A DNA stretch of 64,000 nucleotides. It comes from Antedon mediterranea (lineage: Eukaryota > Animalia > Echinodermata). Shown one piece after another: positions 27,548-63,321 of this stretch. The first letter of the stretch is position 1. Every line of letters starts with the position of its first letter. The stretch covers positions 29,484,912 through 29,548,911 of the forward strand of contig NC_092675.1 of the NCBI RefSeq assembly GCF_964355755.1, given 5' to 3'. A model generated the notes under the pieces. That model saw only the letters and a list, made by a program, of their open reading frames with translations. It was not told the DNA's origin and made no database searches. The position numbers and the translations under genes were made by a program.

Positions 27548-30500
27548 TTATGTTGCATACTTTTGAGTCCATTCTCTGGCTGTTGATGTGTATTTCTCTC
27601 TATTATTTTTAAATGTTCGAGCAATGTCTGGGACAAGTGGGTCGTCTGGGTTAGGGTCATTCAATAAAGAGCATATTGACAGCAACACTATGGAAATAAA
27701 TAACATAATTTGTATTTGGTGGGTACCTGCCTACCAATCAATTTTTGTCTTTGTGGGAATAGTCATAATATCTACTGTAAAGGCCAATTTAGACGAGCGG
27801 TAATGGTAATAAAAATATTGAATCTTATGTCATTTCTTATGACAATTTACACAAAACGCGGAGCAGACAGGTGGTTTACGCTCAGAATAGATACAGATTC
27901 TACGTGGGACAAGCTACGCAGTTTTCCGCTTACTGTTACTGCTCGTCTGTGTAACGTGACTGGTGAATAGTCCTAAATATAATTATTGAATATGGCTGAA
28001 TTTATTATGATAAATAACCATAAACTAACCTTTAGATATGGTCAATGCTGGTGACCACTGAGACCGCAGAATGTCTAAACAAATACTACCATTTGCATTG
28101 ATATTTGGGTGATAAATTTTTGTTGTGAACGCAACCTAGAATGAGATGAAATAAACATTAATAATTAATATTCATAGCATTCATAAATAACAACACTTTA
28201 AGTTCAACTTAATAAATGTTTGAGAAATGTTAAACCCTTTATTTAAACTGCATCTTAACGCATTTAATGGGAGGAGGTGAAATGCATTACACTAAATCAT
28301 ATTAAACTATTAAACAAGATTGAAAAATGAAATTTAGTGTTTATCAATTGAAACCGACTTATTTACATTAAATCTAAATGAAACCATTTATTTAGTTTAG
28401 TTAGAGTACTGCATCTTTTTTACACTGCATACATTTTTACAACTTGTTATAATTTTCAACAAGTTGTACTGTAATGTAACATCTTGTTTTCCCGATTTAT
28501 TACATGTTTTCATACAAATCTTGGGAGAAAAGTATTGTAATTAAAAAGTTGAGGGAGCTATTTGATTATTATATTATTAGCATAACATACTGTGATTAAG
28601 ATAGTCAGCTAAATACCAGCACTAACTTGCTTCTTGATGGTGAGATTTTAAACAAAATTTCCCTCACACTAGCACTAACTTTTCTTATGTGATGTGAAAA
28701 GGGCTTTAAATAGACAACCTTTATTACATAACACTAAATGAGACTGGTCTGGTTGAGTGAAACTTTTAGCTACATGTACTTTCCATCTCCATGCTAATAT
28801 AACATAGATACAAACAAAATAATTCTATTCTCAACTTGGTGTGATAACTAAAGCATGGTTTCCACTAGCGACGCAACCTAACGCAAACCATGCAACGTAA
28901 CAAAATGCCATTCCAATAATTGTGTTTGCCCCCGCCTGCGTGAAATCAAACCTGCTTGTTGCGCATCAACATTAGTTAAGTTGCCGTAGACTTTGACCTG
29001 GTTCACCCAGCATACTTTTGAATATGCGCTGTACTATATGTTTTCCGGTGTTCTTTTGCCATGCATTGTTGCGTGAAATCAAAATCAAAACGACATATCG
29101 ATGTTTGCAGCACTGTTACGTCGTTGGTTCCCACTTGTGATTATGCAATACTAAACTTTGCGTTGATATGTCGCTGCGTTACGTTGCGTTCTAGTGGAAC
29201 CCACGCCTTCCTATTCATACAATTTGCTTACCTTGGGTGGTTTAAATGGATAATCAGTTGGAAATTGTATAGTTAAAAAGAACACACCTCCTTGATAAGG
29301 ACTCTCAGGCTGAAAACAACAATTATTTATTGTTTACTTGCTTTCTTTACTTACTTGAATCCAGGAACTCAAAAACATTGTGGTAAAAATTTATAAATCA
29401 AAATTACTTAAAATATTATTGTTTCTCATTTTTAGTTTGATATTTATTGTTTTCTGATGACATAATACAGCATACTCTCACTGAATAAAAACCAATGCAA
29501 ATGATGACCGATTTCAAGAATACATGTTTTTCTTTGTGCTATGCTTCATTGAGCAGCTATTAAATACACGTAATCAATAGGACAAATCGTCATTTGGACT
29601 TTATGTGATGTGCCCATATGAACATGATGTCATATCACTACCATATTTGGGAATATTACTACCATATTTGGCCACATCACAACTAGTTTGATAGTGTAGA
29701 CAGAGCTTTAGAAACCAGCAAAACTCTGTTGATGTGGGGAGCAATATTCCTGCATGCGCATGGTGGATTAACAAGAATACTTTAGTAAGTCGTAGGTCGT
29801 CGCAAATTAACAGCATCCTATTAAATCCGGTTTAATAAGTTCATACTTAATTATCTTAATGAAATACTTACAGGACCCATTATTGTTGCTTGCCAATGAA
29901 ACACTGCAAGTGAATTGAAAGGTAATTGTTAAAAGAAAGTTAATTAAATTTTTAATTTAATTTAATTGTAAAATCTTTACAAACGATAGAAAAATAACAC
30001 ATTTATGATACAGAAAATTAATGATAATGGATGATTCTGTATTGATGATGTTATCATCATGTTTGGTTGAGAATTATACAACGTGTTATTTATTTATGAG
30101 TAATAAAGACTTAGTATAGATAGGCCTGATGAACTTACAATCGTCTCCCACTGGTCCTGCAGAGCATTGGGCTGGTGGGTCTCTACCTAGATCTTGTAAT
30201 TCCTACAAACAAGTAAAATAATAATGATCAAAGGATAACAAATAAAGGGAAGCACAATACCACAATATAAATCATAGTTAGCATCTATTAGTATTATTAT
30301 TATTGGTAGCCTCTAGTAGTAGGCCTACTATATTTATATAATTATATATATTTTATATTTCAAAGCTACTATTATGGGATGGACTTTGATAGCCTATATC
30401 CAACTCTGGTACAATTTACTTCCTTTTTGTCCATAGCTTGGCTAGGTTCGAAATCTCTCCGGGTCGGCGCTAGACCTACTTACCTACCTATTCTAGGCTG

Positions 30501-30663
30501 GGTAGACTTTATGCCTAGAATCTCCGACACCACAATAAAATATAGCCACACAAAACATCCAAAAACAGAATTCAAATATAACCAAAACAACGCAAAACAA
30601 CAGAAATTAATTATAAAATTGTATATTATCTAGACCTACCTTTTGTAACCTTTTCAAAGCCAT
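27548..30663 (-). CDS. UBE2D: Ubiquitin-conjugating enzyme E2 D, copy B, 147 aa, catalytic Cys85 intact
   Basis: Exons 30663-30640, 30202-30139, 29903-29872, 29309-29232, 28135-28030, 27687-27548. [147 protein letters not shown]. Confidence 0.93.
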
Positions 30664-61600: not shown

Positions 61601-63321
61601 CCACAATAAAATATAGCCACACAAAACATCCAAAAACAGAATTCAAATATAACCAAAACAACAGAAATTAACTAGAACTTAAACTCGTCACTTGAGGACG
61701 AGTTTGGTTATCCGCCCGCAAAAAAAAACGTATCTTGCGCATTCAAGTACTTTTCAGTTATGACTTTTCCAAAAAGTAGCCTATTCAAAATTAAAATTGC
61801 CCTTTCAGTGTAATAACCAAATAAATCCTTTTATTTAATTGTTTTCCCGTGATGGGATTCGATCCCGGTACCTCTGATACCAAAGTCGGTTGCACTACAC
61901 ATCGATCCATATGAGCACCTGCTAAAGAAAATCCGAAGAAACAGTCCTCGTTCATTCGGTATGTCGTGAACCCCCTCGATGCAAGTTGATTATTACATAT
62001 CAAACTTAAATCATAAATTTTACTATGATGAAATCTTCACAAATTTTAAACAGTAACATATTATGAAAGTGCATACTTCAAGTTTTATATATTAACATGT
62101 AAAGAAAAAAGATAAACGTTATGTTTATTGTTTTGCTCTTTGAAAATTTTATTGTTTGTTTGATGATCAAAATTTCGAAAATTATATTTAATATGCAAAT
62201 AATGTAGCCATCAAACACGTTTTAACATTCAACACTATAATAAATCAGACCTACGATTCATAGACTGTAATAAAATAAAATAAAAAACGGGGGTAACCTT
62301 GCATTCTGACTGTATCACTTTTAAAAGTAGACATATTTTGCAACATTTTCACAATTTGTTGACGTTTTCGTGCGCAACCAGTCATGTTTAACGTGCTCGT
62401 AGAACGCCATTTCAAGTTGAAAAGTGAATAAAATAACGTAAATTTGTTAACCCAATTTTGAAAAACACAATTTATGCAAAAGAAAAGCTTATACGCGTTC
62501 CCTGTGCCGTGCGCGCGTAAAAATGTGCGCACCAGTGGCAATTTTTGAAACGCTTAAAATGACCTGAAACATGCTCTAATTTAATCAGAAATTGATTTGA
62601 AGCATTTTAAAATTTCAAACGCCGTTTACGCGCGCACTTTCTACTGTTTCGGTAGCGATAAAAAAGTTAACAATTGATGTGAAGCAAACGTGGCTGAAAA
62701 TGACGTTTAAAAATATTTATTTGTTTCGAAGTTATAACCAATTTAAGATTTTCAGAAAATCGAGCGTAACTTACGCTACGCGGCTCTGACATCGTCCAAA
62801 AGCTTGGCTGCACAACTTCCGTAAAATGTCTAAATGCTGAACAAGTTACAACATGTTATGACGCGTTGCAGAGAAACAGCGTGAACAAATTTGGAGCATT
62901 TTAAAATTTCAAACGCAATTTAAGCGCAAACTTTCTAGTGTCCAAAAATTTGCTAAAGATCGAAAAAGTTAGCCATTGATGTGAAGAAAACGTGGCTGAA
63001 AGTTACGTTAAAAAATATTTATCGGTTTCGAAGTTATGATCAATTTAAGATTTTCAGAAAATCGTGCGTAACTTACGCTACGCGCGTCTGACAGCGTCCA
63101 AAAGCTTTGCTGCACATCTTCAGTTAAATGTCTAAATGTTTACCAAGTTACAACATGTTATGTTAACACGTTGCAGAGAAACGGCGCGAACAAAAGTGGC
63201 GGAAAGAAGAATAATAAAAAAGAAACACTACAATTCCAAGGGCTTATCCGCTTGAGGCGGATAACCAATTATAAAATTGTATATTATCTAGACCTACCGT
63301 TTGTAACCTTTTCAAAGCCAT
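58639..63321 (-). CDS. UBE2D-derived E2 variant, copy D, 147 aa, catalytic Cys85 replaced by Gly (predicted inactive)
   Basis: Exons 63321-63298, 61258-61195, 60958-60927, 60369-60292, 59225-59120, 58778-58639; all GT-AG, open frame. [147 protein letters not shown]. Could be a young pseudogene. Confidence 0.8.
61671..63267 (-). mobile_element. Same Helentron-like element in intron 1 of copy D (no LINE)
   Basis: Reverse complement of 38036-39295 plus 42676-42981, same termini and insertion point. Confidence 0.75.

What the first reader, a model, noticed from the sequence alone, without database searches (positions are those of the whole stretch)
27548..63321. Young UBE2D gene array whose exons appear to diverge faster than its introns
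Seen: B vs C coding differences are 10 of 10 nonsynonymous (L3S, K8T, D16E, P17S, A23V, H32N, T58I, S83I, I99M, T135I). C vs D differ at 27 of 444 nt, giving 22 amino-acid changes and only 2 purely synonymous codons. In intron stretches compared by eye C vs D differ by about 1 in 220 nt (intron 4) and about 8 in 340 nt (intron 5). No copy has a stop, frameshift or broken GT-AG although indels and TE insertions are common in the introns. Known: UBE2D/Ubc4 is normally among the most conserved eukaryotic proteins. Inference: diversifying selection on an E2 family, as in host-pathogen or germline conflict. The B-C count alone is not decisive, and intron divergence is patchy.
Basis: partly seen in the sequence, partly recalled or inferred. 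Interest (0 to 1): 0.92.

Follow-up and report, generated by a model that had tools for sequence, protein, structure and literature searches.

The report
Fast-evolving dead copy of UBE2D
A feather star carries three young copies of one of the most conserved ubiquitin enzymes (UBE2D); one copy has lost its catalytic cysteine in the assembled sequence and has changed its amino acids several times faster than its own introns while sparing the protein's core, so it was likely pushed by natural selection toward a new, non-enzymatic binding role.

Summary
The window holds an old UBE2D gene (A) and three young intact copies (B, C, D). C and D equal RefSeq proteins of the crinoid Antedon mediterranea. 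The exon-over-intron excess belongs mainly to D: 19 private nonsynonymous changes (6.0%) against 0.9-1.5% private noncoding changes (P 4e-9 to 2e-5). B versus C shows no excess (2.95% each). A branch codon model gives omega 4.4 on the C/D clade against 0.054 on A/B (P=0.013 against neutrality; D alone P=0.12). The 25 changed positions spare the conserved core (1 hit, 7.4 expected) and cluster on the backside binding site (8 of 15). B is spliced and expressed; a related species expresses a B-like protein. Expression of C and D is untested, and C85G rests on the assembly alone. Best reading: positive selection on a folded duplicate that likely became a pseudo-E2 binder; a conflict as driver is unshown. 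The scan has not reported this locus; it noted unrelated E2 arrays with damaged copies in fungi and phages.

The parts
12230..21396 (-). Gene A, old UBE2D paralog (exons 21396-21373, 15405-15342, 13747-13716, 13489-13412, 12757-12652, 12369-12230); Cys85 intact
   Evidence: A vs B dS 1.35, dN 0.073
27548..30663 (-). Copy B, conserved and expressed (exons 30663-30640, 30202-30139, 29903-29872, 29309-29232, 28135-28030, 27687-27548); Cys85 and Ala96 intact
   Evidence: spliced contig with B letters in run X8
37982..46050 (+). Copy C (exons 37982-38005, 43399-43462, 43698-43729, 44287-44364, 45459-45564, 45911-46050); Cys85 intact; 5 private and 5 C/D-shared amino-acid changes; protein identical to XP_071952780.1
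58639..63321 (-). Copy D (exons 63321-63298, 61258-61195, 60958-60927, 60369-60292, 59225-59120, 58778-58639); 17 privately changed codons; protein identical to XP_071954308.1
59169..59171 (-). Codon 85 of D, GGT (Gly) in place of the catalytic Cys (TGT in A, B, C)
   Evidence: aligned to Cys of solved UBE2D chains; not shown in the DNA run's contigs
59136..59138 (-). Codon 96 of D, GAA (Glu) in place of Ala96 of the E3-binding loop L2
   Evidence: Ala in 99 of 100 family representatives
37860..37911 (+). 36-nt hairpin insertion with an 8-nt direct repeat, 70 nt upstream of C's ATG; shared with D (63443-63392), absent from B; marks C and D as sister copies
   Evidence: read directly
39296..42670 (-). 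LINE-type insertion with broken reading frame in intron 1 of C, absent from D
   Evidence: endonuclease domain PF03372
42671..48753 (+). C arm of the C/D inverted duplication (pairs with 61982-56012), 96.6-98.2% identical
25304..30975 (-). B unit of the duplication, inverted relative to C, 88-95% identical to the C and D units

Best explanation
Copy D of a young three-copy UBE2D array has lost its catalytic cysteine in the assembly and has gained 19 private amino-acid-changing substitutions at 4-7 times its intron rate while sparing the conserved core, so it is likely a folded, catalytically dead E2 variant that positive selection reshaped into a new binder, while copy B likely keeps the enzyme's job. 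Steps: (1) shown: local inverted duplications gave B, C and D; C and D are sisters. (2) shown: B's protein stayed put and B is spliced and expressed. (3) shown statistically: nonsynonymous excess on D and on the C/D clade, core spared, backside site enriched. (4) from established E2 biochemistry: without Cys85 D cannot carry ubiquitin as a thioester, and an acid at 96 would block RING/U-box E3 binding. (5) inferred: D is made as protein in a restricted tissue, stage or condition, and works through its remodelled backside face (P17L, A19P, Q20K, T36R, F51I, T147M) as a non-catalytic adaptor or decoy; A96E would keep it from jamming B's E3 partners. The partner and the selective agent are unknown; I favour a germline or immune-restricted role only by analogy.
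For: Only 1 of 22 D changes is a CpG transition and the mutation-spectrum correction is small. Branch model: omega 4.4 (C/D clade) vs 0.054; LRT vs omega=1 P=0.013 and 0.010 under two frequency models. 1 of 25 changed positions falls on 44 conserved core positions, 7.4 expected (P=0.001; D alone 1 of 17, P=0.016). 8 of 25 fall on the 15 backside residues listed in PMC4996978 (2.6 expected, P=0.0007; P=0.011 among non-core positions; control A-vs-B 1 of 18). Dead-copy-plus-conversion simulations: 0 of 720 runs reached a ratio of 4 with 15 changes. D lineage 24 of 319 vs 69 of 1099 noncoding differences to the related species spread over two lineages, P=0.0005-0.005. D's exon 6 letters stand in their own DNA contig (0 differences, depth 14.4).
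Against: From codons alone D is not significant (omega 2.8, P=0.12 and 0.098; P=0.02-0.16 by counts). The cross-species test is not significant if all noncoding divergence is put on one lineage (P=0.26-0.57) and weak for D-private changes only (P=0.013-0.062). At C85G and A96E the DNA run's contig shows only the B/C letters, so both rest on the assembly. Intact frame is weak evidence: chance of no stop 0.25 and no indel 0.37 for a neutral D. The backside test was chosen after seeing the changes. C85G is one mutation and could be a late loss of function. Ser22, the centre of the backside site, is unchanged.
Confidence: 0.45

Rival explanations
1. D was an active E2 with altered partners that evolved fast under positive selection, and C85G is a recent disabling mutation: the gene is now dying or the allele is a polymorphic null.
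For: All selection evidence is history and does not date C85G. C keeps Cys85 and already has 3 of its 10 changes on the backside list. Birth-and-death is usual in tandem arrays (own knowledge).
Against: D carries a second change that would disable E2 function at another site (A96E; A96D abolishes E3 binding in PMC2254412 and PMC3554608, passages), with no stop, indel or core hit.
Confidence: 0.22
2. Selection acted to defuse a harmful duplicate: changes that cut D off from E1, E3 and ubiquitin were favoured because an extra or faulty UBE2D interferes with B and A.
For: Changes fall on known interaction sites: catalytic Cys, loop L2, backside.
Against: Stops, frameshifts or core changes would remove the protein more cheaply, yet none occur and the core is spared; 19 steps are many for this purpose.
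Confidence: 0.12
3. D's exons are older than its introns suggest: they drifted under relaxed constraint while gene conversion kept resetting the introns, and selection on D's own function rejected conversion in exons. No omega above 1 is needed.
For: Noncoding divergence is patchy: C and D are 0.85% apart in the 3' flank but 2.7% in the upstream/intron 1 segment. Islands of divergence under conversion are described in PMC3728101 (abstract).
Against: Protected exons should also collect synonymous changes; D has 1-3 in about 107 sites, at intron level. D-private noncoding changes are not raised next to exons (6 of 482 within 50 nt vs 20 of 1737 beyond 400 nt).
Confidence: 0.12
4. C and D are plain dead duplicates and the excess is chance, mutation bias or one-way conversion.
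For: Intact frames are expected by chance; C alone is not significant against introns; D lacks Cys85.
Against: Rate excess, core sparing and 0 of 720 simulated runs.
Confidence: 0.06
5. Part of the array is an assembly artefact (merged haplotypes or base errors), including C85G.
For: No single-copy depth reference was laid, so three equal-depth units could be spread over two haplotypes; the B/C letter alone shows at 59171.
Against: Three different versions cannot all be alleles of one locus in a diploid; D-specific letters appear in DNA contigs at exons 2, 4 and 6, B-specific and D-specific contigs have equal depth (15.6, 14.4) and C+D contigs about 25; errors would not avoid synonymous and core sites.
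Confidence: 0.03

Closest known systems
UBE2D / Ubc4-Ubc5 family E2 enzymes (UbcH5a-c; PDB 2oxq, 1z2u, 3ugb)
   Same: 147 residues, colinear without gaps, E=8e-80; Pfam UQ_con; His-Pro-Asn77, Asp117, Phe62, Ser22 kept in all four genes.
   Different: D lacks Cys85 (Cys in 317 of 323 aligned homologs) and Ala96 (99 of 100 representatives); the family evolves at omega about 0.05 here, the C/D clade at about 4.
Ubiquitin E2 variants (UEV: Mms2/UBE2V, TSG101, AKTIP/Pendolino, UEVLD)
   Same: UBC fold without the catalytic cysteine, acting by binding (abstract starts of PMC12513931 and listing of PMC4481407; the rest recalled). D would work like one.
   Different: Those are ancient lineages (recalled); D is a very young offshoot of UBE2D, 86% identical to its sister C and about 80% to ordinary UBE2D. 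Binding by D is untested.
Positively selected duplicates of conserved hub genes, e.g. Caf1-55dup of Drosophila (PMC5240099) and testis actin-related proteins (10.1101/665299)
   Same: One copy under steady purifying selection, the other under episodic positive selection (abstract of PMC5240099; search listing only for the Arp paper).
   Different: Here the gene is an E2, the split is far younger (introns 1-3% apart) and the fast copy has lost its catalytic residue.
Mammalian UBE2DNL (UBE2D N-terminal like)
   Same: A degenerate UBE2D offshoot (recalled; only shows that the name occurs in 14 papers).
   Different: Independent origin; nothing on its residues or selection was checked here.

Membership tests
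UBE2D/Ubc4-5 active E2 | UBC domain, about 147 aa, colinear with UbcH5 | tested here: met
   (C 177 bits, D 170 bits, cut-off 27)
UBE2D/Ubc4-5 active E2 | Catalytic Cys85 in genes A, B, C | tested here: met
   TGT in A, B, C
UBE2D/Ubc4-5 active E2 | Catalytic Cys85 in copy D | tested here: not met
   GGT in the assembly; D is therefore not filed as an active UBE2D
UBE2D/Ubc4-5 active E2 | HPN motif (Asn77) and Asp117 | tested here: met
   all four genes
UBE2D/Ubc4-5 active E2 | E3-binding residues Phe62 and Ala96 in copy D | tested here: not met
   Phe62 kept, Ala96 replaced by Glu; A, B and C keep both
UBE2D/Ubc4-5 active E2 | E1-dependent ubiquitin thioester and E3-stimulated transfer | not testable with these tools
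   needs biochemistry
UEV / pseudo-E2 | UBC fold lacking the catalytic cysteine | tested here: met
   D only; folding inferred from core sparing, no structure was predicted
UEV / pseudo-E2 | Descent from a named UEV lineage (UBE2V, TSG101, AKTIP) | tested here: not met
   D's nearest relatives are C, B and UBE2D proteins: it would work like a UEV but is not a member of those families
UEV / pseudo-E2 | Expressed and acting by binding ubiquitin or a partner | not testable with these tools
   contigs cannot show absence or tissue-limited expression
Gene under positive selection | dN above intronic reference on the D branch | tested here: met
Gene under positive selection | dN above dS from codons alone | tested here: inconclusive
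   C/D clade P=0.013; D alone P=0.12

The most novel reading that the evidence does not exclude
A new pseudo-E2 caught at birth: within less time than separates two closely related feather-star species, a UBE2D duplicate lost catalysis and E3 binding and rebuilt its backside face under strong selection to act as a decoy or trap in a conflict (against a pathogen or parasite protein that hijacks UBE2D, or in the germline), with C as an active escape variant and B as the untouched housekeeping copy.
Probability: 0.2. Interest if true: 0.85.

Novelty: new variant of a known kind. Interest (0 to 1): 0.66.

Why it matters
UBE2D is a hub with many E3 partners and is almost frozen in evolution (omega 0.054 between A and B here). 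Catalytically dead E2 variants are known only as ancient families, so how they arise is hard to study. This locus gives an ancestor-like enzyme (B), an intermediate (C) and a dead, remodelled end state (D) only 10-22 residues apart, with a related species as outgroup. Every step can be rebuilt and assayed with standard E1/E2/E3 biochemistry. If D is expressed, it would be a direct example of a pseudoenzyme born under positive selection, and its partner would point to what exerts selection on the ubiquitin core in an echinoderm. Ten literature searches of the held library listed no paper on this locus or on positive selection in a young UBE2D duplicate; I read listings, not all full texts, and subscription journals are mostly missing.

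Tried and rejected
Whole-genome copy count: no genome is held for this window, so copies elsewhere are uncounted; protein searches with C and D found no other close copy among about 8000 candidates scored each, which is not proof. Expression of C and D: no listed holder is on record as RNA; in run X8 no contig with C or D letters was displayed, but contigs drop rarer variants, the tissue is unknown and that animal may lack C and D, so this is no evidence of silence. Direct read support for C85G and A96E: not obtained; isolated D-private letters elsewhere (61128-61129) are also missing from the X1 contigs, so the blank is uninformative. GC-to-AT bias or CpG decay as cause of fast exons: rejected. 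Import of D's exons from a diverged donor: rejected, no synonymous load and no raised flank divergence. 'No stop or frameshift' as proof of function: rejected as weak. The B-vs-C 10:0 count alone: P=0.055-0.07, and equal to intron divergence. The 50%-representative search returned UBE2D-family proteins only in its best 150 rows, so the core test uses within-family conservation (100 representatives from 323 aligned rows of 360 proteins; rows under 125 aligned residues or above the E cut-off were dropped) rather than burial from a structure. No structure or complex was predicted: the fold is solved for 80%-identical relatives and no partner is known. The simulation is crude: 18 settings of 40 runs, uniform tracts, no population stage. 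Searches of earlier findings by place and by sequence were blank.
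Full report
Anatomy. Self-comparison shows three homologous units: B (about 25.3-31.0 kb), C (37.6-48.8 kb) and D (56.0-63.6 kb); B and C are head to head, C and D tail to tail. Each holds a six-exon UBE2D gene of 147 codons with GT-AG introns, and a fourth, much older gene A lies at 21396-12230. The C and D proteins are letter-for-letter XP_071952780.1 and XP_071954308.1, named 'ubiquitin-conjugating enzyme E2 2-like' of the crinoid Antedon mediterranea. 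Those records give no sign of anything unusual; their RNA support could not be seen. C and D share a 36-nt hairpin insertion with an 8-nt direct repeat upstream of the start codon that B lacks, so they are sisters. C has a 3.4-kb broken LINE in intron 1.

Observation. A vs B has dS 1.35 and dN 0.073. Against introns 2-5, B-C shows no excess (65 of 2202 = 2.95%, pN 2.95%), B-D a twofold excess (P=0.001) and C-D a 4.5-fold excess (P=1e-7). By majority rule the coding changes split into 5 shared by C and D, 5 private to C (all ten nonsynonymous) and 22 private to D (19-20 nonsynonymous, 2-3 synonymous). Cys85 is the catalytic residue (passage in PMC6349121; alignment to solved chains). A96D removes E3 binding or activity (one passage in PMC2254412; passages in PMC3554608); Glu is my extrapolation from Asp.

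Is the excess real? Noncoding divergence is patchy, as expected from gene conversion or captured allelic variation, so I used several references. With a mutation spectrum taken from the noncoding private changes, D's 19 changes in 319 weighted sites compare with 41 of 4641 (all), 21 of 2168 (introns 2-5), 23 of 1531 (faster segments) and 8 of 405 (fastest): ratios 6.7, 6.1, 4.0, 3.0; P=4e-9, 1e-7, 2e-5, 0.005. Allowing a factor 2 the first three stay significant (5e-5, 5e-4, 0.022) and the last does not (0.22); with a factor 3 only the first two do. C alone gives P=0.02 against all noncoding and 0.09-0.24 otherwise. My own MG94 branch model gives omega 0.054 on A and B, 4.4 on the C/D clade, P=0.013 against omega=1; D alone 2.8, P=0.12. 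A forward simulation of neutral copies with conversion and a B that rejects nonsynonymous tracts gave mean ratios of 0.8-1.2 and never the observed pattern in 720 runs. D-private noncoding changes are not raised near exons, which argues against an imported block.

Decay or constraint? Intact frames prove little. A stronger test uses 100 family representatives: the 25 positions changed in C or D hit 1 of 44 conserved hydrophobic/Gly/Pro positions where random single-base changes would hit 7.4 (P=0.001), and 4 of 55 near-invariant positions where 9.6 are expected (P=0.009). The fold was therefore under purifying selection for most of this history. Against the 15 backside-site residues listed for the AtUBC8-MUB and Ube2D3-ubiquitin complexes (passages of PMC4996978), 8 are changed (16, 17, 19, 20, 23, 36, 51, 147; expected 2.6; P=0.0007; 0.011 among non-core positions), 6 of them in D; the slow A-vs-B changes hit 1 of 18. 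This test was chosen after seeing the data, and Ser22 is unchanged. Phe51 also contacts a backside-overlapping ubiquitin variant (passage in 10.1101/2024.03.10.583603; its supplement is closed and was not needed).

Outside data. Four of nine listed runs were laid on D; all are contigs, and the table of other letters shows 40 rows with 221 not shown. X1 (DNA, organism A, possibly the assembly's source, so not independent) has a D-specific contig over exon 6 with 0 differences where B differs at 12 and C at 8 places, depth 14.4, beside a B-specific contig at 15.6 and C+D contigs at about 25; D letters also persist in exons 2 and 4. At codons 85 and 96 only the B/C letter is shown. X8 (organism A, another study, spliced at CT..AC joints) holds a transcript with B's letter at 12 of 12 displayed coding sites and 22 of 23 displayed 3' sites (the other is at an alignment gap), so B is transcribed and spliced; a second, deeper spliced contig is likely gene A or another older UBE2D. 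X9 (spliced) and X6 (DNA) of organism B show long single contigs whose coding letters equal B's at 10 of 10 displayed nonsynonymous sites in X9, including Cys85, but not at the two synonymous sites that separate D from B and C. So B's protein is the ancestral state, D's residues are derived, and D's two synonymous differences may be ancestral letters, which would leave D with 19-20 nonsynonymous against 0-1 synonymous changes (P=0.024 for 19:1). Organism B's introns differ from D by 6-8%; the D lineage's 24 nonsynonymous changes (7.5%) exceed half of that (P=0.0005-0.005) if D's history starts at the species split, an assumption I could not test. Unexplained: organism B's 3' region carries B's letter at only 3 of 23 displayed B-specific sites and is 12 of 762 from D, while B is 37 of 762 from D.

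Mechanism. Shown: local duplication, a static expressed B, accelerated surface change with a spared core in the C/D clade and mostly in D. From known E2 biochemistry: D cannot form a ubiquitin thioester and probably cannot bind RING E3s. Inferred: D persists as a folded non-catalytic binder that uses its rebuilt backside face. I put about 0.7 on positive selection having acted on a folded D, and 0.45 on D being a working dead binder today. The main rival is that D was an active variant and C85G is a late null (0.22).

Comparison and verdict. A, B and C are UBE2D members. D fails the catalytic test and is not filed as an active E2; it would work like a UEV but descends from UBE2D, not from a named UEV family. 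The pattern of one frozen and one selected duplicate is known from other hub genes (abstract of PMC5240099); conversion islands from PMC3728101 (abstract). I found no report of it for UBE2D in ten searches of the held library. Earlier scan notes describe unrelated E2 arrays with damaged copies; I did not check them. Novelty: new variant of a known kind. Interest 0.66: surprising for this family and cheap to test, but expression of D, the reality of C85G in raw reads and the selective agent are open.

Noticed in passing
window 57700-58522 (3' region of D) against runs X6 and X9: The related species' single expressed gene pairs a B-like protein with a C/D-like 3' region (B letter at 3 of 23 displayed sites); B's own 3' region is the outlier. 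This suggests capture of old alleles or an older B split with conversion of the gene body.
   Followed up: partly
window 12590-12549 (intron 5 of gene A): A near-exact second copy of the last 40 nt of exon 5 with its GT donor lies about 60 nt downstream of the real donor; a possible alternative donor or a small tandem duplication.
   Followed up: no
window 12369-12230 (gene A exon 6): Gene A has Ser107 where 93 of 100 family representatives have Cys, and an unusual C-terminal helix; A and B differ at 18 residues, 9 of them in the last 19.
   Followed up: no
window 1340-4930 (+): Exons of a BTB-BACK-kelch gene (Pfam BACK hit at 3508-3951) neighbour the array.
   Followed up: partly
window 17840-20120 (-), 35190-36080 (-), 39296-42670 (-): Three broken LINE-type elements: in intron 1 of A, between B and C, and in intron 1 of C.
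   Followed up: no
window 32597-33048 and 37175-37628: A 450-nt segment ending in a cysteine-rich reading frame, 98.7% identical in inverted orientation between B and C; with 33568-33736 and 34497-34840 it forms a second, younger inverted duplication interrupted by insertions.
   Followed up: no
window 38113-38694 and 62595-63194: Tandem units of about 280-300 nt in intron 1 of C and D, absent from B; this segment holds the densest C-D noncoding divergence (17 and 10 differences in two 200-nt bins).
   Followed up: no
window 363-527, 26399-26561, 47062-47218, 57470-57632, 60630-60770: A very abundant short inverted-repeat element (MITE-like), with summed contig depth in the hundreds of thousands in all four runs.
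   Followed up: no
window 63840-63862 (-): About four telomere-like GGGTTA units inside a repeat upstream of D.
   Followed up: no
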